From a virus (lineage: Duplodnaviria; Heunggongvirae; Uroviricota; Caudoviricetes): a stretch of 44,960 nt of DNA. The notes beneath the pieces are model-generated. The model was given only the letters and a program-made list of their open reading frames with translations, was not told where the DNA came from and did not search any database. The translations under genes and the position numbers were made by a program. This document shows positions 28,707-36,764 of the stretch, one piece after another (positions within the stretch are counted from its first letter, which is position 1; each line of letters starts with the position of its first letter). The stretch lies in IMG/VR virus record IMGVR_UViG_2529292828_000011, one strand, 5' to 3'.

Positions 28707-28987
28707 AACGATAACTCCGTACATTTGGACATTATCGCCACCGTCAGGTGCTAATCATCGTGGTGGCGAACTGTGCGGGGTTAGCACTACCGGGCACGGA
28801 AACCGGCGAGCCTTTCGGCTCCCCCACACAGCCCGCCATAAATCGCGAATATGACTGTGCAAACGATATGAAAAAAGACGCGGGCGCGCCTCATATCGCT
28901 CCGTAAACATCCGGGGTGCTAATCCCGACAACCGATTTTGCGGTTGCGTCGGAAATATAGCCCCGGACAATGTGTCTGGTCAAGCTC

Positions 28988-31143: not shown

Positions 31144-31395
31144 TTATTCTTCTGCAAAAGCTGAAAAGCCTGCTTTTATTCCGATCTCTTTCAGTGCCTG
31201 TAATGAAGTGACAAACTCACCTTCGCGCAAGATAAATCCGTCTGTCACTCGACTATCCACAAAATTAATTAACGCAGCCCCATTCTTTCGCAAACACATA
31301 ATGCGGTAATGACTAACAAGATTTCCATTTTCAACGCACACAGCATAGAGGCCATCTTCACAAAAAATTTTACGCAGTTCTTCGATGTTCATCAT
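31144..31395 (-). CDS. hypothetical small protein (possibly Rem-like, by position next to hok)
   Basis: 83-aa ORF between DUF968 gene and hok; assignment by Qin gene order only. Confidence 0.35.
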   Translation of the reverse strand: MMNIEELRKIFCEDGLYAVCVENGNLVSHYRIMCLRKNGAALINFVDSRVTDGFILREGEFVTSLQALKEIGIKAGFSAFAEE

Positions 31396-31510
31396 CAGAA
31401 TCCTTCCGGATAATTAGCTCTCCCCTTTAAGGGACCATCCCTCTTATCCCTGCGCGCTACTTAAGTATTTTTGATTCTATTCCGGCACCGTCCAGAACTT
31501 CAAACGCGTT

Positions 31511-31541
31511 GAAAATAAAAACAAAAACCCGCCGAAGCGGG
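31511..31541 (-). terminator. rho-independent terminator downstream of hok
   Basis: cccgcttcggcggg hairpin followed by tttttgttttt on the minus strand. Confidence 0.55.
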
Positions 31542-31611
31542 TTAAGTGTGGGTGCATTGAGGATGCCTGACTCATCAGAGATGGCGAGGGATTTCTCCCC
31601 CGCCTGGTCTC

Positions 31612-31767
31612 TTACTCCTCAGGTTCGTAAGCTGTGAAGACAGCGACCTCCGTCTGGCCGGTTCGGATTCGTACCTCGCAGAGGTCTTTCCTCGTTACCA
31701 GCGCCGTCACTATGACGGTTAAACAGATGACGATCAGGGCGATTAACATCGCCTTTTGCTGCTTCAT
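31612..31767 (-). CDS. hok: Hok-family type I toxin (HokD/RelF-like), 51 aa
   Basis: Translates to MKQQKAMLIALIVICLTVIVTALVTRKDLCEVRIRTGQTEVAVFTAYEPEE, a canonical Hok sequence; absent from the ORF track because it is under 60 aa. Confidence 0.85.
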   Translation of the reverse strand: MKQQKAMLIALIVICLTVIVTALVTRKDLCEVRIRTGQTEVAVFTAYEPEE

Positions 31768-31979
31768 AGCCCGCTTCTCTTTGACCTTTTGGTCGGTAAG
31801 AGGCTAATCTACGTATGCAAAGTATAGATGTGGCCTCAGATTAATGTTAAGCGTCTTGCAGGACGTGTAATGTTAACTGGGGCTTTTCTCTATCTGCCGT
31901 TGGTGTTCATGCCCGAGGCAGACAGCCTCAAGCACCCGCAGCCATTCTACTTAACTCCCGTTACCTCGCCAATATGAAA

Positions 31980-32069
31980 TCAGTCAGAAAGGCGATCCAT
32001 AAGAATAATGGCAAGACAATAAATCGCCATTACAGCCACAATAGCCAGCGCACATTTGAGAACCAGCAC
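31980..32069 (-). CDS. candidate small hydrophobic peptide (29 aa; type I toxin-like or truncated hok paralogue)
   Basis: GTG start preceded by AGGAGG at 5-nt spacing; encodes MLVLKCALAIVAVMAIYCLAIILMDRLSD. Confidence 0.3.
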   Translation of the reverse strand: MLVLKCALAIVAVMAIYCLAIILMDRLSD

Positions 32070-32247
32070 GGCAACCTCCTGTATAGAACGTACACCTGTC
32101 CTGATAAATATGAGGCTGTCTCGTCAGTGATTCAATACAACTATTGGGTATAGTTTCTGTAATTTTGTTCTGTAGAAATAGAACACAGCAACCAGTCACC
32201 ACCAGCACTTATTTAAATACGCAAAGTCCGGCGCAAGCCAACATTTT

Positions 32248-32275
32248 AGTCCGCTTTGAGCGAGAAGCGGAAGTT
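32248..32275 (+). repeat. left copy of an imperfect direct repeat flanking the 449-aa gene
   Basis: agtccgctttgagcgagaagcggaagtt; 15-bp core tgagcgagaagcgga identical to the right copy; contains inverted arms ccgctt/aagcgg. Confidence 0.6.
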
Positions 32276-32400
32276 CGCGGTTGAAAATAACACCATTAAG
32301 GTTGCGGTTGATTGATGGTGAATAAACGTTATATTAACCCACCCAATAACTCCTATAAAGAGGGAGTCATTGATTCCCTCTGTTATTTTTAAAACGAATA

Positions 32401-33750
32401 TCAAAGATATCTTTCTTCAAAATCCTTTGCTTCACATAGAGCTGGATTTATTCTTGCAATTATTTCTTGGCAATTAGAGATATTATCCTGCAGAGCTTTA
32501 ACAGCCTTTTCTTTAATTTTAGGGATATTATTGAATTTTCCTTTCATCATACCTTCAGCTCCAAATGAACCCCAATTGCCTGCAGCACAGATATGAACAA
32601 TGAGTTCGAAGCAATTTATGTTGTCCATCAAACTGGAGATGTCACCATCGTATGAATTTACACTCTGAGCAAAAGTGTTAGCTTCAGAGAAAGTTGTAGA
32701 TCCGGCCTGCCCAAAAATTGATTGGATGACTTTCTGTCTAGCCCACTCATGCCCTTTTATATTCTTCATCAGCACTGGGCTAAGTTTATATTTTTCAAGA
32801 ACATCATCAATGCTAGATCTAAAGCATCTATCAATAATTTCTCTTTCCAACCCAAGAACACTAATTGCAATCTGTACAGGGTGCCTTAAATAGGTATGCT
32901 GATCGGAGGATTTTGTAGTTGAAATTGTATCCTCAAACATTTTATTTAATCTTAAGTAAACAATATCCTCCATACCTTTTAGCAAATTACCATTGGTTGA
33001 AATACATTCCATTAAACATTGTCTTTTACTTTCATCCGAACTGCACTCAACTAAGAAATGCTTTTTTATTTGCTCAAGAACATCGTTATTTAGTGGTTTA
33101 AAAGATAGGCCTAAAAGATATCTTTTTGCATTAAGTTTTATTTGTTCATTGGCATTGTCTAATGACTCTATGAGTTTTTTCAGGAGGTATGAGTAACCAT
33201 CATGATGAAGATTTTTAACACCCTCATTTACTACGATAGCATGGTCCTGAATATTAGATGTTGGGAATAAGTATGAATTGGTAAGCTTAGATAGGATTTG
33301 GTCGGCAACTTGAGTTGTTGAAAGAACTGGCTTTGAAAGAAATCTATTTATAGTTTCTGAATACACATATCGAGCTTCTTCAGCTGTCGGTTTATGGCCT
33401 GAAGGATGTGCAGCTTTATTTCTGAGAGTTCTTAACACAGTGAGAAAGTCAGCATCAATCTCTGTAATTATTTTTTCAGATTTCAATTTATTAAGCAAAT
33501 CATTTTCGTAAACTTTTTGTTCATCTCTTTTCTTGGATATTTCTGTAAAGATCGCTTTAGCAACTCTATTCGTAGTGGCCATCCCGTCTAACTTTTTGAA
33601 TAAGTCCTCGAAGATGGCAATGAACGAAAGCACTACGCATGCTCGATGAGCACCAGTCATATAGCAAATTAGTGCTTCTCGCATGTATTCTTTAAGCTCA
33701 ACATCCACGATATCACCAATAAGCTCTTCCATATCTCTCAGACTCGACAT
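32401..33750 (-). CDS. orphan 449-aa protein with N-terminal HEPN-like domain (Rx4H motif RNKAAH), candidate abortive-infection/defence protein
   Basis: AT-rich gene with AAGGAG Shine-Dalgarno; N-terminal about 140 aa resemble DUF4145/HEPN-type domains (..LRTLRNKAAHPSGH..); C-terminal 300 aa helical with no recognised domain. Confidence 0.5.
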   Translation of the reverse strand: MSSLRDMEELIGDIVDVELKEYMREALICYMTGAHRACVVLSFIAIFEDLFKKLDGMATTNRVAKAIFTEISKKRDEQKVYENDLLNKLKSEKIITEIDADFLTVLRTLRNKAAHPSGHKPTAEEARYVYSETINRFLSKPVLSTTQVADQILSKLTNSYLFPTSNIQDHAIVVNEGVKNLHHDGYSYLLKKLIESLDNANEQIKLNAKRYLLGLSFKPLNNDVLEQIKKHFLVECSSDESKRQCLMECISTNGNLLKGMEDIVYLRLNKMFEDTISTTKSSDQHTYLRHPVQIAISVLGLEREIIDRCFRSSIDDVLEKYKLSPVLMKNIKGHEWARQKVIQSIFGQAGSTTFSEANTFAQSVNSYDGDISSLMDNINCFELIVHICAAGNWGSFGAEGMMKGKFNNIPKIKEKAVKALQDNISNCQEIIARINPALCEAKDFEERYL

Positions 33751-33849
33751 AATTGCTCCTTTTGTTTAAATTTTATACGAAAACACCTCAAGCAATTAGA
33801 ATGCCTTGCTCATCGTTGATTGGCAACATCCACTTTACAGGCCCACTAA

Positions 33850-33878
33850 AGTGCCGCCATGAGCGAGAAGCGGACGTT
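33850..33878 (+). repeat. right copy of the imperfect direct repeat flanking the 449-aa gene
   Basis: agtgccgccatgagcgagaagcggacgtt; same 15-bp core as the left copy. Confidence 0.6.
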
Positions 33879-34394
33879 TCACTCATAAAGACTGGATTTA
33901 CTATTACATTAAACTCAACAAGACCTGGCCGCACCCACTCAGCGCGATCTTTGCGCGTCCGGCCCGTTTCCGGCACTATTCCCCGTCCGTATTGTGAAAA
34001 AACACCCATGCTAATTTCTGCGCATCTGAATGCCTGCGCACGCGGGTGAATGGCGGGCGGTTTCGGGCAAATGCGGGAATTAAGGGAGGATTTCCGGCAG
34101 TAAACGTGCGAAGTATATTGATAAATCTGTACGTGATTCACGGTTAACAGGTGCGCTGTTTAGTGGGTGAACGTGAGGCGTTAAGCAGCGAGCTTTGTGA
34201 GGCGATAGCGGTTTTTAGAGCCAGCTGCAGGCTCAGGAAAAAATATTCTGTTTTCGGGGCAGACACCGCAAATGACGACATTTTGCGGGGGTCTGCCCTA
34301 TCCTGCATCTCAGCAAAGCGGTGCCCTGTTCCCACCATGAGGTTTACCCGTCGCAGACCGCCGTAAGGTCGCGTTTTCCCATTCCTTTCCGTAC

Positions 34395-34735
34395 AACGGG
34401 TTTCCTTAAAGGTGGTGCGATCCAAGCTTGGCTATATGCACGAACTCCCCGATCCACCCGACTACCACAGCAATTTAGGTAACTGTTCTCTTGATCCCAA
34501 TCTTGACAGGCACGATAAATCGCCAATGGTGGTAACCATTGGTAACTGGTTTTATGGAGCGAGTAAACGCACGAAAGTACAAAGAATTCTTGAAGTGTCG
34601 GCCTAACTACAGATACACTGAAAAGACAGTTTTGGTTACTGCGCTCCGTTAAAGCCAGTTACCACGGTTCAAAAAGTTGGTAGCTCTAAGAACCTTGAAA
34701 AAACACCATTGGTAGCGGTGTTTTTTCTTATCTAG
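34395..34735. other. ColE1-type plasmid replication origin remnant (RNA II body and antisense RNA I region)
   Basis: Collinear similarity, judged by eye, to the pBR322/ColE1 ori region (e.g. gaattcttgaagtgtcggcctaactacagatacactgaaaagacag vs gagttcttgaagtggtggcctaactacggctacactagaaggacag); weaker similarity may extend left to about 34170. Confidence 0.6.
34626..34726 (+). ncRNA. RNA I-like antisense RNA of the ColE1-type origin (possibly a relic)
   Basis: Begins ACAGUUUUGGUUACUGCGCUCCG.. (ColE1 RNA I begins ACAGUAUUUGGUAUCUGCGCUCUG..) and ends in a ..GGUAGCGGUGUUUUUU terminator-like stem. Confidence 0.45.
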
Positions 34736-34778
34736 AGCTGGATACTATCACCACACATAAATTCATTAAGGAAAAAAG

Positions 34779-35249
34779 ATGTCTTCTGGAAGAAGGAAAA
34801 AAACCGAAACACAAAAGAGAAATAATCAAAGCCTTATAGATATTATATCTAGCATAAGTGAGTTTAATAATATAAAAGAATTAGAGAGAGAAGAAGGATT
34901 TGAATTGGTTGCATTTAAATTCAATGAAGTCAATTTAATACTTGAGAAGAGAGTAGCATCTAGAATAATAGTAATGAGACTGATGAACTCTTTTAACACC
35001 AACGCCATGAAAATAGGCAAAGATAAACAATCGCTACTGTCCATTGCTAATAATTTTAATAGAAAATCAATAGGAATAAAATCGACAATAATTGAAGAAG
35101 AACAAACACCATTGATTGTTTTCACAGTAGAAGAGATTGCTGTTGATGAAAAGATGCTCAACTTATCTGGTGATTCGTTAAGAATGCTAGCCGCAATTTT
35201 AGCTGGAGCACCGACATTATTTGAAAAATTAGGAATGGCCAAAGATTAA
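34779..35249 (+). CDS. hypothetical 156-aa basic protein, first gene of an AT-rich two-gene operon
   Basis: ATG with AAGGAAAAAAG upstream; Lys/Arg-rich N-terminus; no recognised domain; followed 9 nt later by the membrane-protein gene. Confidence 0.55.
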   Translation: MSSGRRKKTETQKRNNQSLIDIISSISEFNNIKELEREEGFELVAFKFNEVNLILEKRVASRIIVMRLMNSFNTNAMKIGKDKQSLLSIANNFNRKSIGIKSTIIEEEQTPLIVFTVEEIAVDEKMLNLSGDSLRMLAAILAGAPTLFEKLGMAKD

Positions 35250-35258
35250 GGGATTAGC

Positions 35259-35966
35259 GTGGGCACCGAGATTGAAAACAAACAATTAGAAATCAATACG
35301 CCATCTACTGTAAGTAGCTATACTGCTGAAAAAAATAGTAATTCATCAGTAACTGAGGTCGCTTCAAGTTTTGCTGCGATACTTATTATCGTTGTTATAG
35401 TAGTTTTAATCCTTTGCCTTTTGCAAAAGATGCATGTGGCGATAACACGTTTTTTCGAATTCATAATCTCTGTACCTTGGTATAAAAGAACAGTATTAAT
35501 AGTCATAGGAGCCATATCAACCTACCTAACAACAAAAGTACCAACTTCCTATTCATTCCTTCCTATAATAATAGGTTACATAACCACTTTTGCATTTAAT
35601 GAGTTTGCGTCAAAGAAAGATATAGAGAAAGCAAAAGCGCCTCTTGAAGAGGATATTATAGGAAAAGAAAAAACAATAGTTCTTTTTAGAAGAATAATTG
35701 AGGAAAAGAAAAACATATTCCAAGAAATAATAATTAATCGTATTAATGCTTGTGTGAGGATCACAGGAAAAAACGATAGTGACACCCTAAGAAAGTTGAA
35801 AATAAAGATATGCGAACTACAAGATATTATTTTTGCTGAAAAAACCTTTACCGAAACGCCAGATGAAGCTATTAGAAGATACGAGAATTCAGTATCTGGA
35901 GATGTTGACATGGCAGCACAGACTATGTTTGGTGATAGCAGAAGTGAGCAAGCGACTGCTGCCTAA
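35259..35966 (+). CDS. hypothetical 235-aa membrane protein (three predicted TM helices plus charged C-terminal domain)
   Basis: GTG start with AAGGGA upstream; hydrophobic segments ..FAAILIIVVIVVLILCLL.., ..TVLIVIGAISTYL.., ..FLPIIIGYITTFAF..; C-terminal Lys/Glu-rich region. Confidence 0.55.
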   Translation: MGTEIENKQLEINTPSTVSSYTAEKNSNSSVTEVASSFAAILIIVVIVVLILCLLQKMHVAITRFFEFIISVPWYKRTVLIVIGAISTYLTTKVPTSYSFLPIIIGYITTFAFNEFASKKDIEKAKAPLEEDIIGKEKTIVLFRRIIEEKKNIFQEIIINRINACVRITGKNDSDTLRKLKIKICELQDIIFAEKTFTETPDEAIRRYENSVSGDVDMAAQTMFGDSRSEQATAA

Positions 35967-36187
35967 AAAGATCAATCGGCTTATGTTCATACATTGTAGT
36001 AAAAAGCTTATTTGGTAAAAGCCAATCTACAATAAGAGCATAAGTATGCTAAATATCACTTCAAATGCTCTATGTCTGCGATATTTACCATAACATCTCT
36101 TTCCGGCACCACCTGAGAGGGCCTCAACGAGGTTCTGCTGCTTTTCCTTGTCCGTATCTCGAAAAAACTCCTCAGATGTTCCTGCAT

Positions 36188-36224
36188 GTTTGCCTGATTA
36201 TGCGGTGAGATCTTTTCTACGCGG
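36188..36224. other. second ColE1-ori-like segment (RNA II promoter-proximal region), separated from the main remnant by about 1.46 kb
   Basis: gtttgcctgattatgcggtgagatcttttctacgcgg resembles pBR322 gtttgcaagcagcagattacgcgcag...gatcttttctacgggg, which directly follows the RNA I terminator in ColE1-type plasmids. Confidence 0.45.
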
Positions 36225-36338
36225 ATTAGTGATTACAAATGTTTAAAACGTCCGTTACTGGCACAAAGCGGACAACCACGCTAGCTCAACCCTGTGCCAT
36301 GAAAATGTCAATTCATATCTGAACTAATGCTCTTTAAT

Positions 36339-36764
36339 CTAGTAACGTCTAAAATATCGAACATTTCCCTGATAAAATGCCAGTATGCGCTGCATAACTT
36401 CACTCCTCCGGCACTCGCTACAAATTATGTTTAGACGACTGTCGTAGCGACGTATTTCTCCGTCAGATAATGACCAGATAAGATCCGGATCAACCACAGC
36501 AGGTTTCTTCACCTTTGCCCTCGAGAGTTTTTTGCGGGCGTTTTGCCAGTCCTTACGCGCCTGTTCAGACGGGAATAACCCGTAGCCGGAGTTGTATACA
36601 TCACCACTGGCAACCAACTCTCTGGCAAGAACGCTCATCAGATATCTTGTCGCACCTGTTTTAGCTTCCAGTTGCCGTAACGTCTCACGACCGCTCTGGC
36701 GCACGAGTTCCACCACCTGCCCTTTAATTTTTTCCCGCTCTTCTTGTGTAAAAACTTTTGCCAC
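36339..36764 (-). CDS. hypothetical protein in the replication module
   Basis: 141-aa ORF downstream of the replication initiator; no family recognised. Confidence 0.4.
   Translation of the reverse strand: MAKVFTQEEREKIKGQVVELVRQSGRETLRQLEAKTGATRYLMSVLARELVASGDVYNSGYGLFPSEQARKDWQNARKKLSRAKVKKPAVVDPDLIWSLSDGEIRRYDSRLNIICSECRRSEVMQRILAFYQGNVRYFRRY

What the first reader, a model, noticed from the sequence alone, without database searches (positions are those of the whole stretch)
31400..36340. Accessory island between the Q-proximal genes and the replication module, dense in toxin and defence-like cargo
Within about 5 kb the prophage carries a Hok toxin gene, a small hydrophobic peptide ORF, the HEPN-like gene, a plasmid-origin relic and the two-gene membrane operon, much of it AT-rich. 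None is needed for the lambda life cycle, which marks this as a variable cargo hotspot.
Basis: inference. Interest (0 to 1): 0.6.

Follow-up and report, generated by a model that had tools for sequence, protein, structure and literature searches.

The report
Prophage defence hotspot with captured plasmid
This 5-kb stretch of an E. coli lambda-like prophage is a real swap-in/swap-out cargo site: it holds a Hok/Sok toxin module, a HEPN RNase defence gene, and a small ColE1-type plasmid that has lost its replication start point, and the movable pieces are separated by copies of one 24-bp hairpin motif.

Summary
The window is an intact-looking Qin-like lambdoid prophage.

**Parts**
- Shared with relatives: hok/sok plus a 29-aa hydrophobic ORF. 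This is semi-conserved flank, not variable cargo.
- A 1.6-kb AT-rich cassette encodes a 449-aa DUF4145/HEPN protein with an invariant RNKxAH motif. It is distantly related to PD-T7-3/DARNA. The cassette is 99.9% identical in an unrelated E. coli island.
- A 2.4-kb cassette is a circularly permuted pPA3.0-like ColE1-family plasmid. It keeps RNAI, the 5' 410 nt of RNAII, cer-like Xer sites and the plasmid's only two genes. It lacks the RNA–DNA switch, so it is not a working origin.

**Variability**
- Among 60 close relatives the interval has 13 cargo configurations.
- Others carry PD-T7-1, PDC-S15, QueH-like, GNAT or relBE/flxA cargo.
- Only 26 of 5426 complete E. coli genomes carry this configuration.

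**New here**
- Every cassette junction carries the motif GTCCGCTT-N8-AAGCGGAC.
- In two Cronobacter prophages a cargo swap breaks exactly at these sites.

The function of the two-gene module and the mechanism acting at the motif are inferred, not shown.

The parts
31612..31767 (-). hok (51 aa), type I toxin
   Evidence: Pfam HOK_GEF E 1.2e-23; PHROG 251; NCBIfam Hok-family model below its cut-off; RefSeq annotates it as hokD. A terminator-like hairpin lies at 31543-31526.
31762..31937 (-). hok mRNA leader / sok antisense region
   Evidence: Rfam RF01794, 97.9 bits against a gathering score of 59, full-length model. Promoter-like sites on the - strand at 31972-31944 and 31850-31821.
31980..32069 (-). 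29-aa hydrophobic ORF with a strong Shine-Dalgarno sequence; no family match
   Evidence: Sequence read; RefSeq WP_000960667.1; no hit in Pfam or NCBIfam. It lies in the part shared with relatives.
32249..32272 (.). junction motif site A (L-type): GTCCGCTT TGAGCGAG AAGCGGAA; boundary between backbone and the DUF4145 cassette
   Evidence: Homology to mEp460, Evi and Tritos ends at 32271-32276. Homology to the vat-island copy starts at 32272. Motif located.
32273..33875 (-). DUF4145/HEPN cassette. The gene lies at 32401-33750 (449 aa), with a terminator-like hairpin at 32359-32381. The cassette is flanked by a 15-bp direct repeat, TGAGCGAGAAGCGGA, at 32257-32271 and 33860-33874.
   Evidence: PADLOC PD-T7-3 4.2e-15 over residues 6-282; Pfam DUF4145; invariant R110NKxAH115. 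The same 1604 bp occurs at 99.9% identity next to vat in three E. coli genomes. GC 0.36.
33852..33875 (.). junction motif site B (L-type loop and right arm intact, left arm degenerate): TGCCGCCA TGAGCGAG AAGCGGAC
   Evidence: vat-island homology ends at 33875 and Yersinia cassette homology begins at 33860.
33876..36249 (.). captured pPA3.0-like ColE1-family plasmid, circularly permuted at its cer region
   Evidence: Window 34410-36141 matches pPA3.0 2187->458 at 82%. Window 33938-34043 matches 476->371 and 34140-34231 matches 298->207. The same cassette is present in a Yersinia intermedia prophage at 88-90% and a Cronobacter prophage at 86%.
33896..33935 (.). degenerate cer-like Xer core: ATTTACTATTA, then a central region carrying a 12-nt insertion, then TGGCCGCACC
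   Evidence: Alignment to the pPA3.0 cer-like core; coordinates. The cer consensus was recalled from memory.
33938..34312 (.). cer accessory-like region
   Evidence: 72% identity to Salmonella plasmid p3 109-464; 74-80% to pPA3.0 207-476.
34325..34735 (-). 5' ~410 nt of RNAII with a promoter-like element (TTAATG-16 nt-TGaTAGTAT at ~34766-34738). The 3' part and the RNA-DNA switch are deleted, with the junction at ~34313-34324.
   Evidence: The pUC ori aligns only to its position 362 here, but to ~600 in the free plasmids L003, L004 and L021. Alignments of L004 and L020-22 stop at 34325. The promoter was read by eye.
34627..34729 (+). RNAI antisense RNA gene, with a ColE1-like promoter (TTGAAG-17 nt-TACACT, 34590-34619) and a terminator
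   Evidence: Rfam RF00106, 68.4 bits against a gathering score of 47, full-length. Promoter and terminator strings located.
34779..35249 (+). orf156: soluble protein with a YbjN / type III-secretion class I chaperone-like fold
35259..35966 (+). orf235: membrane protein. It has one strong TM segment (about aa 37-58), two weaker hydrophobic helices, and a conserved helical C-terminal domain.
   Evidence: Hydropathy; alignment A2 with an invariant FAFNE..KKDIEK..LQDII..PDEA block. AlphaFold2 pLDDT 67.5, all-helical. 83% aa identity to a pPA3.0 ORF. No significant fold or family match.
36083..36110 (.). intact cer-like Xer core: ATTTACCATAA CATCTCT TTCCGGCACC, followed by a second, diverged partial accessory region (36113-36205)
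   Evidence: Alignment to pPA3.0. The left and right accessory copies are only ~70% identical to each other. Coordinates.
36250..36273 (.). junction motif site C (R-type): GTCCGTTA CTGGCACA AAGCGGAC; boundary between the plasmid cassette and backbone
   Evidence: Backbone homology to mEp460, Evi and Tritos restarts at 36238-36247. Yersinia and Cronobacter cassette homology ends at 36254 and 36269. Motif located.
31144..31395 (-). rem (conserved left flank)
   Evidence: RefSeq annotation; PHROG 340.
36339..36764 (-). DUF977 / Ren-like gene (conserved right flank)
   Evidence: Pfam DUF977 8.8e-28; PHROG 142 'Ren-like exclusion protein'.

Best explanation
The interval is the cargo (moron/defence) hotspot of a Qin/Rac-type lambdoid prophage. 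It sits where lambda has the start of its nin region, between the Ren-like gene and rem/DUF968/RusA/Q. It was assembled from three independently acquired units.

**1. hok/sok.** This is a complete type I toxin-antitoxin module that most relatives also carry. Its likely role, from established Hok/Sok biology, is post-segregational or abortive killing.

**2. The HEPN cassette.** This self-contained 1.6-kb cassette has a terminator-like hairpin just downstream of the gene (no promoter was identified). It encodes a 449-aa protein with an N-terminal HEPN RNase domain (Rx4H) and a helical C-terminal domain. The architecture matches PD-T7-3/DARNA. By analogy it would be an abortive-infection RNase that cleaves tRNA or other RNA when an infecting phage produces its trigger. 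That mechanism is inferred, not shown.

**3. The captured plasmid.** A whole small pPA3.0-like ColE1-family plasmid was captured, opened in or near its cer (Xer) region, and later lost the 3' end of RNAII with the origin. It can no longer replicate. It still carries an apparently expressible RNAI gene and the plasmid's only two genes.
- orf156 has a YbjN / type III-secretion-chaperone-like fold.
- orf235 is a membrane protein.
- The pair travels together between small plasmids and prophage cargo sites of E. coli, Yersinia, Cronobacter and Serratia, usually beside recognised defence genes.
- I infer a two-component membrane-acting exclusion, abortive-infection or addiction module, in which the chaperone-like protein holds or regulates the membrane effector.

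**How the units are exchanged.** The units are separated by copies of a 24-bp inverted-repeat motif, GTCCGCTT-N8-AAGCGGAC. An L type has loop TGAGCGAG and an R type has loop YTGGCACR. Related phages exchange cargo precisely at these sites. The sites therefore most likely act as short conserved recombination linkers that make the locus a cassette-exchange hotspot. The enzymology is unknown. The candidates are phage Rad52/RecET-type short-homology recombination or a dedicated recombinase.
For: **Context**
- The window is 100% identical to E. coli 13KWH46. There it is a complete prophage between rspB and ydfJ, with integrase, lysis genes and a full head/tail module.

**Variability**
- 13 configurations in 60 relatives.
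- Six named phages share only the flanks.
- Cargo in relatives: PD-T7-1 (4e-157), PDC-S15/FRG, GNAT, QueH, relBE/flxA.

**HEPN gene**
-. DARNA architecture and mechanism come from bioRxiv 10.64898/2026.02.22.705581.
- The cassette is mobile: 99.9% identity in the vat island with the same flanking repeat.

**Plasmid**
- Both proteins match only pPA3.0 among 72,556 plasmids, at 80-83%.
- The window segment is a circular permutation of that plasmid, with cer-like cores at both ends.
- RNAI is present.
- The origin is missing in prophage copies and present in free plasmids.
- RNAI scores fall from 78-88 bits in plasmids to 68, 49 and below threshold in prophage copies.

**Two-gene module contexts**
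- Cronobacter prophages: beside PtuA (2e-238) plus PDC-M01B, or beside an AbiJ_NTD4-like gene.
- Y. enterocolitica prophage: between Q and the lysis genes, beside another DUF4145 gene.
- Serratia prophage, and 3-4 kb plasmids carrying ParE/RHH.
- Fold of orf156.

**Motif**
- The exact 8-mer AAGCGGAC occurs only three times in 45 kb, each at an independently mapped breakpoint.
- L/R pairs bracket the cargo in mEp460, Evi, Tritos, Cronobacter, the vat island and a K-12-like Qin.
- HSP ends pile up at the two sites, 30 and 29 of 140.
- Cronobacter prophages L014 and L343 are 96-98% identical except for one cassette, whose breaks coincide with the end of an L site and the start of an R site.
- Cassette-proximal arm variants travel with the cassette in Tritos, mEp460 and Cronobacter.
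Against: - No function was tested. The anti-phage role of the HEPN protein rests on a distant HMM match: 54 bits, covering the N-terminal two-thirds of the model. All family members score similarly low, so this is a sister family and not PD-T7-3 itself.
- orf156 and orf235 hit no defence, Pfam, PHROG or NCBIfam model. The orf235 model is of modest confidence and has no fold match.
- The motif is absent or degenerate in 4 of 13 configurations. It is degenerate in the commonest one, the 1080-bp QueH-like cargo.
- In the window, sites B and C are imperfect and fold no better than shuffled sequence.
- The contigs used were selected for having the motif.
- Hairpins with the same arms occur as REP/BIME-like intergenic repeats next to ordinary genes in Alphaproteobacteria. 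The motif may therefore have a general role unrelated to cassette exchange.
- How the plasmid entered is unresolved. pPA3.0 carries no L/R site, and the two cer-flank copies are only ~70% identical.
Confidence: 0.72

Rival explanations
1. The 24-bp hairpins are ordinary REP-like or RNA stem-loop elements, such as mRNA stabilisers, insulators or weak terminators, that simply sit in intergenic DNA. Breakpoints coincide with them because cargo boundaries are intergenic. Exchange would then occur by recombination in the longer conserved flanking genes, not at the motif.
For: - Hairpins with the same arms and a related loop consensus (NTGACCCA) occur singly or in inverted pairs about 20 nt apart, next to housekeeping-type genes in Alphaproteobacteria.
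- The motif is missing or degenerate in several hotspot configurations.
- No recombinase was identified.
- The hairpins in the window are weak.
Against: - In Cronobacter the backbone flanks are not alignable to the E. coli phages, yet the motif is conserved.
- The internal swap between L014 and L343 has 4.5 kb and 2.8 kb of 96-98% identical flank available. It still breaks within a few bases of the sites.
- The DUF4145 cassette carries its half-sites into an unrelated island.
- No T-run follows the hairpins, so they are not canonical intrinsic terminators.
Confidence: 0.3
2. The two-gene module (orf156/orf235) is a plasmid maintenance function, such as an addiction or toxin-antitoxin-like pair or another plasmid housekeeping role. 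It was dragged into prophages passively and is not an anti-phage system.
For: - The two genes are the only genes of the 2.9-kb plasmid pPA3.0.
- They sit next to ParE/RHH toxin-antitoxin genes on 3-4 kb plasmids.
- There is no PADLOC hit.
- A small binder protein paired with a membrane protein is a common toxin-antitoxin-like layout.
Against: - The pair is retained intact after the replicon decayed, in prophages of at least four genera and at different prophage positions.
- It is repeatedly adjacent to defence genes.
- Addiction and abortive-infection roles are not mutually exclusive.
Confidence: 0.25
3. The island is mostly inert debris: decaying relics with no present function for phage or host.
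For: - The origin is truncated.
- RNAI scores decline in other prophage copies.
- The left cer core is disrupted.
- Several genomes carry IS2 or IS3 insertions in the interval.
Against: - All three protein genes are full-length.
- The HEPN catalytic motif is invariant.
- orf156 and orf235 homologues down to 43-49% identity keep long invariant blocks.
- The interval is >=99.9% identical in 26 genomes from varied hosts.
Confidence: 0.1
4. The ColE1-like segment is a working second replicon, making this a phage-plasmid.
For: The RNAI gene, its promoter and the RNAII promoter look intact.
Against: - The last ~190-240 nt of RNAII and the RNA-DNA switch are absent. Free plasmids align to pUC position ~600, the window only to 362.
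- All 26 chromosomal copies lie inside an integrated prophage.
Confidence: 0.03

Closest known systems
Prophage defence hotspots (P2/P4 hotspots of Rousset et al. 2022; hotspots in Vassallo et al. 2022, PMC9519451)
   Same: A fixed position between conserved phage genes holds different, often AT-rich, defence genes in different relatives. PD-T7-1 and a PD-T7-3-like gene occupy this very locus.
   Different: The host is a Qin/Rac-type lambdoid phage and the position is nin-equivalent. The cargo includes a whole captured plasmid. The cassettes are delimited by a specific 24-bp palindromic motif. The held papers that I searched do not describe one: a search for the two arm sequences returned only unrelated papers, and 'hairpin' and 'terminator' do not occur in the 2026 P2/P4 paper.
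PD-T7-3 / DARNA (ssDNA-activated HEPN tRNase; bioRxiv 10.64898/2026.02.22.705581)
   Same: Single gene of about 450 aa. N-terminal HEPN domain with Rx4H (R110/H115 here, R117/H122 in DARNA). Helical C-terminal domain. PADLOC model hit at 4e-15.
   Different: The relationship is distant: 54 bits, with model positions 5-298 of 432 matched. The whole family (precomputed Pfam PF27235) scores 42-65 bits, so it is a sister family. The trigger and the RNA target are unknown.
hok/sok of plasmid R1 and chromosomal hok loci (hokD/relF of K-12 Qin)
   Same: Hok_Gef toxin with the hok leader/sok antisense region, at the same prophage position as hokD in Qin.
   Different: In the K-12-like Qin relative (PhiR42_1) relE and relB lie directly upstream of hok. 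Here the leader/sok region matches the full-length Rfam model.
ColE1/pMB1-type replicons with cer (XerCD) sites; closest relative Pantoea agglomerans pPA3.0 (NZ_EU092237.1)
   Same: RNAI, the RNAII promoter and 5' region, a cer-like core whose XerD arm TTATGGTAAAT is identical to cer as I recall it, and the same two cargo genes in the same order.
   Different: It is integrated in a prophage and circularly permuted. The ori switch region is deleted. One cer core is disrupted by a 12-nt insertion, and there is a duplicated, diverged cer flank.
PeSL regulatory cassettes of T4-type phages (Arbiol et al. 2010, PMC2839356)
   Same: Short conserved stem-loop-containing motifs flank non-essential genes in hyperplastic regions and mediate modular shuffling of cargo.
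   Different: PeSLs combine a strong early promoter with a terminator. The motif here is a bare 24-bp palindrome with two loop types, no promoter and no T-run, in temperate lambdoid phages.
REP/BIME elements and integron attC cassettes
   Same: Like REP/BIME elements, these are intergenic palindromes occurring in inverted pairs. Like integron cassettes, gene cassettes are arrayed between hairpin sites.
   Different: No RAYT or IntI was found nearby, although neither was searched for systematically. The sequence does not fit the attC R''/R' consensus or the E. coli REP consensus, both recalled from memory.

Membership tests
Hok/Sok type I toxin-antitoxin | Hok/Gef-family small membrane toxin | tested here: met
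   Pfam PF01848 E 1.2e-23, profile positions 1-42 of 42.
Hok/Sok type I toxin-antitoxin | hok mRNA leader with overlapping sok antisense RNA | tested here: met
   Rfam RF01794, 97.9 bits, full-length model.
Hok/Sok type I toxin-antitoxin | mok reading frame and fbi/tac folding elements; killing activity | not tested
   Not examined in detail. Activity cannot be tested with these tools.
PD-T7-3 / DARNA | N-terminal HEPN domain with a catalytic Rx4H motif | tested here: met
   R110-NKAA-H115, invariant in 117 homologues. Weak alignment of the same motif to a solved HEPN chain, 9wx2.
PD-T7-3 / DARNA | Full-length match to the PD-T7-3 profile, including the C-terminal ssDNA-binding domain | tested here: inconclusive
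   The PADLOC hit at 4.2e-15 covers model positions 5-298 of 432. Relatives reach 369 of 432 at 42-65 bits. No structure was predicted for this protein.
PD-T7-3 / DARNA | Abortive infection by ssDNA/SSB-activated tRNA cleavage; dodecamer | not testable with these tools
   Known only for DARNA itself.
ColE1-type replicon | RNAI antisense regulator | tested here: met
   Rfam RF00106, 68.4 bits, model positions 1-102 of 102. Promoter TTGAAG-17 nt-TACACT.
ColE1-type replicon | Complete RNAII primer and RNA-DNA switch (origin) | tested here: not met
   Alignment to the pUC ori stops at position 362. Free relatives reach ~600. 850-920 bp present in the closest relatives (the Salmonella plasmid p3 and pPA3.0), including their origin region, are missing here; other plasmid hits also show ~0.5-0.8 kb of extra sequence between the two matched parts.
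ColE1-type replicon | cer-type XerCD multimer resolution site | tested here: inconclusive
   A 28-bp core at 36083-36110 aligns to the pPA3.0 core and fits the recalled cer consensus. There is a second, disrupted copy at 33896-33935. Xer activity was not tested.
Prophage defence hotspot | Variable gene content between conserved flanking phage genes | tested here: met
   13 configurations in 60 relatives. 26 of 5426 genomes carry this one.
Prophage defence hotspot | Known defence systems at the same position in relatives | tested here: met
   PD-T7-1 (mEp460), PDC-S15 (Tritos), and PtuA plus PDC-M01B (Cronobacter).
Integron gene-cassette array | IntI integrase and attC sites with R''/R' core consensus | tested here: not met
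   The motif sequence does not fit RYYYAAC...GTTRRRY (by inspection, with the consensus recalled from memory). No integron integrase appears in the annotated neighbourhoods.
REP/BIME-like repeats | Intergenic imperfect palindromes, often in inverted pairs, many copies per genome | tested here: inconclusive
   This holds for hairpins with the same arms in Alphaproteobacteria. In the 45-kb window there are only three copies, all at cassette junctions. RAYT association was not tested.
YbjN / type III secretion class I chaperone fold (orf156) | alpha-beta-beta-beta-alpha-beta-beta-alpha fold similarity | tested here: met

The most novel reading that the evidence does not exclude
The GTCCGCTT-N8-AAGCGGAC hairpins may be dedicated recombination sites of a previously undescribed cassette-exchange system in temperate phages of Proteobacteria. 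Two loop types (L and R) would bracket each cargo unit. Units could then be swapped between phages, islands and plasmids without being deleted, which is functionally like heterospecific-site cassette exchange or an integron without a linked integrase.

Under the same reading, the orf156/orf235 pair, which shuttles between small ColE1 plasmids and these sites, would be a new membrane-acting anti-phage system.
Probability: 0.18. Interest if true: 0.85.

Novelty: new variant of a known kind. Interest (0 to 1): 0.6.

Why it matters
How defence genes move between phages and unrelated elements such as plasmids is stated as an open problem in the recent literature. The discussion of PMC13586616 notes that homologous recombination would need homologous flanks, which plasmids lack. 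This locus bears on that problem in three ways.

- It gives a concrete fossil of plasmid-to-phage transfer. A whole small plasmid became a prophage cargo cassette and then spread among prophages of several genera.
- It points to a short sequence motif that marks the exchange points. That makes the mechanism directly testable.
- It nominates two untested candidate defence genes or systems: a DARNA-like HEPN family and a chaperone-like/membrane protein pair.

Tried and rejected
**Motif**
- Rfam, at both gathering and E-value thresholds, finds no family at the junction motif.
- Literature searches for the motif sequence, and for hairpin-flanked cassettes in lambdoid phages, found nothing relevant.
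- Intrinsic terminator reading: no T-run follows the hairpins, and the scan did not call them.
- Integron attC reading: rejected on sequence.
- The raw number of genome-contig hits is uninformative. With 16 fixed bases in 596 Gb, roughly 140 hits are expected by chance. Only the non-random loops, the pairing and the multi-site contigs carry information.

**Proteins**
- PDB sequence searches for the three proteins gave nothing significant. The best hit was E 0.08, to a HEPN chain.
- Foldseek of orf235 against the PDB, and of orf156 against viral structures, gave no significant match.
- NCBIfam has nothing for the HEPN protein, orf156, orf235 or the 29-aa ORF.
- tblastn of the HEPN protein against 50,697 phage records found no match.

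**Plasmid segment**
- Functional second replicon: rejected, because the origin is deleted.
- Clean Xer integration into a pre-existing site is not supported as stated. The left core carries a 12-nt insertion, and the duplicated cer flanks are only ~70% identical.

**Not done**
- I did not use the one representative-library search.
- I did not predict the HEPN protein's structure.

Full report
**Context.** The window is 100% identical to a chromosomal segment of E. coli 13KWH46 and about 25 other complete genomes. In that record it is a full-length lambdoid prophage inserted between rspB/ynfA and a truncated ydfJ, the Qin site. The prophage carries the following:
- integrase, excisionase, exonuclease and dicB;
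- cI/cro-like genes, ydaT, an O-like replication gene and a DUF977 (Ren-like) gene;
- the interval under study;
- rem, DUF968, RusA, Q, lysis genes, terminase, head and tail genes.

Phage early-rightward genes lie on the window's minus strand. The interval therefore sits where lambda has the start of its nin region.

**Checking the observation.**
- hok lies at 31612-31767 (-). It matches Pfam HOK_GEF at 1.2e-23. The leader/sok region lies at 31762-31937 and scores 97.9 bits in Rfam.
- A 29-aa hydrophobic ORF with an AGGAGG ribosome-binding site lies at 31980-32069 (-) and is annotated in RefSeq. It has no family match.
- The HEPN-like gene is a 449-aa DUF4145 protein at 32401-33750 (-).
- Rfam finds a full-length ColE1 RNAI at 34627-34729 (+). 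The surrounding 33935-34745 resembles thousands of small enterobacterial plasmids at 68-83% identity.
- Two tightly spaced ORFs follow at 34779-35249 and 35259-35966 (+).
- GC is 0.36 for the HEPN cassette and 0.33 for the two ORFs, against 0.47-0.50 for the neighbouring backbone. The hok part and the ori relic are not AT-rich.

**Is it a variable hotspot?** Yes.
- Megablast against phage genomes finds 81 records that share only the flanks.
- In six annotated relatives the space between hok and the Ren-like gene holds different cargo:
  - mEp460: a PD-T7-1 gene (PADLOC 4e-157);
  - Tritos: an FRG/PDC-S15 gene;
  - Evi: a GNAT acetyltransferase plus a gene annotated as a transcriptional regulator;
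  - HannyBb: a QueH-like gene;
  - a K-12-Qin-like phage: relBE, ydfV, flxA and an IS;
  - 689R5: ea22-type genes.
- For an unbiased count I fetched 80 viral contigs selected only by a >=91% identical DUF977 protein. Sixty also carry hok. Their DUF977-hok interval is 1.08-7.3 kb and falls into 13 configurations. The window's configuration occurs once.
- Only 26 of 5426 complete E. coli genomes hold >=80% of the interval.
- Backbone homology to relatives runs through hok/sok and the 29-aa ORF up to 32271-32276, and resumes at 36238-36247. The variable part is about 32272-36250.

**The HEPN cassette.**
- The protein hits the PADLOC PD-T7-3 model at 4.2e-15, over residues 6-282 against model positions 5-298 of 432.
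- PD-T7-3 is now called DARNA. It is a 456-aa abortive-infection protein with an N-terminal HEPN RNase (R117x4H122) and a helical C-terminal domain. It cleaves tRNA anticodon loops when activated by phage SSB-bound ssDNA. It was isolated in the Vassallo screen.
- In the window protein R110-N-K-x-A-H115 is invariant across 117 full-length homologues.
- All sampled homologues hit the PD-T7-3 model at only 42-65 bits. This is a sister family with the same architecture, not PD-T7-3 itself.
- The cassette is mobile. Window 32272-33875 occurs at 99.9% identity in three E. coli genomes in a different place, an island beside the vat autotransporter gene.
- In both contexts the cassette is flanked by the repeat TGAGCGAG(A/G)AGCGGA. 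In the window the two copies lie at 32257-32271 and 33860-33874.

**The "plasmid relic" and the "two-gene operon" are one captured plasmid.**
- Each of the two proteins matches exactly one record among 72,556 plasmids: the 2901-bp Pantoea agglomerans plasmid pPA3.0. These are that plasmid's only two annotated genes, matched at 80% and 83% aa identity.
- Aligning the doubled plasmid to the window gives three blocks:
  - window 34410-36141 corresponds to pPA3.0 2187->458;
  - window 33938-34043 corresponds to 476->371;
  - window 34140-34231 corresponds to 298->207.
  The window segment is thus a circular permutation of the plasmid, apart from the 920-bp origin-containing stretch that is missing.
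- The permutation point is the plasmid's cer-like Xer site. An intact core ATTTACCATAA-CATCTCT-TTCCGGCACC lies at 36083-36110. A disrupted copy, with a 12-nt insertion in the central region, lies at 33896-33935. My comparison with ColE1 cer rests on a consensus recalled from memory.
- About 100 bp of cer-flanking sequence is present at both ends, but the two copies are only ~70% identical. The capture event was therefore not a simple single crossover of one monomer, and I cannot reconstruct it.

**The origin is dead.**
- A pUC/pMB1 origin sequence, recalled from memory, aligns at 73% through its position ~600 (the RNA-DNA switch) in the free plasmids pPA3.0, Salmonella p3 and a metagenomic plasmid carrying the same two genes.
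- It aligns only to position 362 in the window and in the Yersinia prophage copy, and only to position 188 in the Cronobacter copy.
- Relative to the free plasmids, 850-920 bp including the origin are missing. The junction lies at ~34313-34324.
- What remains is the RNAII promoter and its 5' ~410 nt, plus an RNAI gene with a ColE1-type promoter (TTGAAG-17 nt-TACACT) and a terminator.
- RNAI scores fall from 78-88 bits in free plasmids to 68 in the window, 49 in Yersinia and below threshold in Cronobacter. This fits relaxed constraint.
- Whether the window's RNAI is still made, and whether it interferes with incoming cognate plasmids, is an open and testable point.

**The two genes.**
- orf235 has one strongly hydrophobic segment at about aa 37-58, two weaker hydrophobic helices, and a conserved helical C-terminal domain. 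It has no significant fold or family match.
- The family is small and restricted to Enterobacterales. The two genes always occur together and in the same order.
- Their contexts:
  - small ColE1 plasmids, some carrying ParE/RHH;
  - Cronobacter lambdoid prophages, between the replication gene and NinB/RusA/Q, next to a Septu-like PtuA (2e-238) plus PDC-M01B pair or an AbiJ_NTD4-like gene;
  - a Yersinia enterocolitica prophage, between Q and the lysis genes, next to a different DUF4145 gene;
  - a Yersinia intermedia prophage;
  - a Serratia prophage.
- The Yersinia intermedia copy shares the window's truncated origin and both cassette ends at 88-90% nucleotide identity. The capture and the deletion therefore predate spread among genera.
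- I infer a two-component, membrane-acting exclusion, abortive-infection or addiction module. This rests on association only.

**A motif at every junction.**
- When I lined up the independently mapped breakpoints, each fell in or beside the same 24-bp inverted repeat:
  - site A, 32249-32272: GTCCGCTT TGAGCGAG AAGCGGAA;
  - site B, 33852-33875: TGCCGCCA TGAGCGAG AAGCGGAC;
  - site C, 36250-36273: GTCCGTTA CTGGCACA AAGCGGAC.
- The exact octamer AAGCGGAC occurs only three times in the 45-kb window, at these three places.
- In mEp460, Evi (two perfect sites) and Tritos, an L-type site (loop TGAGCGAG) and an R-type site (loop TTGGCACA) bracket the cargo.
- In Cronobacter the backbone flanks are unrelated in sequence to the E. 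coli phages. The same sites nevertheless delimit three successive cassettes, in the order L, R, R plus L 17 nt apart, R.
- The vat island has L, L and R sites around its cargo. In a K-12-like Qin the ydfV/flxA segment lies between an inverted R and L pair.
- The cleanest evidence is a natural swap. Cronobacter prophages L014 and L343 are 96-98% identical over 4.5 kb and 2.8 kb of flank. They differ only in L014 10580-13640 (PtuA plus PDC-M01B) against L343 10105-11181 (AbiJ-like). The breaks coincide with the end of an L site and the start of an R site.
- Arm variants next to a cassette travel with it. In Tritos the L site reads GTCCGCTT...AAGCAGAC and the R site reads GTCTGCTT...AAGCGGAC. Similar patterns occur in mEp460 and Cronobacter. 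This is what crossovers inside the sites would produce.

**Limits on the motif.**
Loops clustered tightly into CTGGCACA/TTGGCACA, TGAGCGAA/G and a few other types. One flank was conserved and the other variable.
- HSP ends between the window and those contigs pile up at the two sites. Those contigs were chosen for having the motif.
- In the unbiased sample the motif is found in 9 of 13 configurations, and both L and R in 5. The commonest configuration keeps only the backbone-side arm.
- In bacterial genomes the number of perfect-arm hits is about what chance predicts. The loops, however, are strongly non-random (NTGACCCA), and sites often come in inverted pairs about 20 nt apart. In Alphaproteobacteria they lie between ordinary genes. 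Elements with the same arms therefore behave there like REP/BIME repeats.
- The hairpins are not followed by T-runs, are not in Rfam, and were not found in the literature I could search.
- The closest described analogue is the PeSL motif that mediates modular shuffling in T4-type phages.
- I therefore treat "conserved recombination linker" as the best-supported reading. The enzymology is open. It could be short-homology recombination by the phage's own recombinase, or a dedicated enzyme.

As a kind of thing, a prophage defence hotspot is known. The captured, origin-less ColE1 plasmid, its uncharacterised two-gene module, and the junction motif are the parts that go beyond what is described.

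Noticed in passing
window 32249-32272, 33852-33875, 36250-36273; also L008 2231-2254 and 3649-3672; L014 7648, 9486, 10516, 10557, 13643: A 24-bp inverted-repeat motif, GTCCGCTT-N8-AAGCGGAC, with two loop types (TGAGCGAG and YTGGCACR), sits at every cassette junction in the window. It brackets the variable cargo in related phages of E. coli and Cronobacter.
   Followed up: partly
L014 10580-13640 versus L343 10105-11181: Two Cronobacter prophages are 96-98% identical except for one cassette: PtuA plus PDC-M01B in one, an AbiJ_NTD4-like gene in the other. The boundaries fall exactly at an L site and an R site. This is a natural cassette swap.
   Followed up: yes
L144-L263 (bacterial genome contigs), e.g. 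L196 1485-4475, L239, L248: Hairpins with the same arms and loop consensus NTGACCCA occur in many Alphaproteobacteria (Pseudolabrys, Sphingomonas and others) and in Xanthomonadales. They often form inverted pairs about 20 nt apart between ordinary genes, like a REP/BIME family.
   Followed up: partly
L011-L013 (E. coli CS18F, FY10, E06), island next to vat: The DUF4145 cassette recurs at 99.9% identity in a non-prophage-like island. It lies beside a 331-aa unknown gene, a 200-aa integrase and a 439-aa protein with weak LmuA/metallo-beta-lactamase-like PADLOC hits. L, L and R motif sites lie at L011 5978, 7581 and 11020.
   Followed up: partly
window 28759-28843 and 28871-28947 (-): Rfam hits to C4 antisense RNA (78 bits) and isrK Hfq-binding RNA (71 bits) lie just downstream of the Q antiterminator gene, between it and the lysis genes. 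They are outside the finding.
   Followed up: no
records H17, H19 and H126-H129: Several of the 26 genomes carrying this island have IS2 or IS3 insertions inside it. In four chicken-meat or human isolates the insertion lies within the stretch matching the DUF4145 cassette.
   Followed up: no
L007 2875-3889 (phage PhiR42_1, K-12-Qin-like): The ydfV-flxA segment of Qin-type prophages lies between an R-type and an L-type site, both in inverted orientation relative to the backbone. This suggests that it too is a motif-bounded cassette.
   Followed up: no
L344 10278-10940 (Yersinia enterocolitica prophage): A shorter (220-aa) DUF4145/HEPN gene sits next to the orf156/orf235 pair in the Q-lysis moron position. 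This is a second, independent co-location of this pair with a HEPN gene.
   Followed up: no
window 31980-32069 (-): A 29-aa strongly hydrophobic ORF with a consensus Shine-Dalgarno sequence lies upstream of the hok/sok locus, within DNA that several related phages share. It could be a second small membrane toxin. It has no family match.
   Followed up: partly
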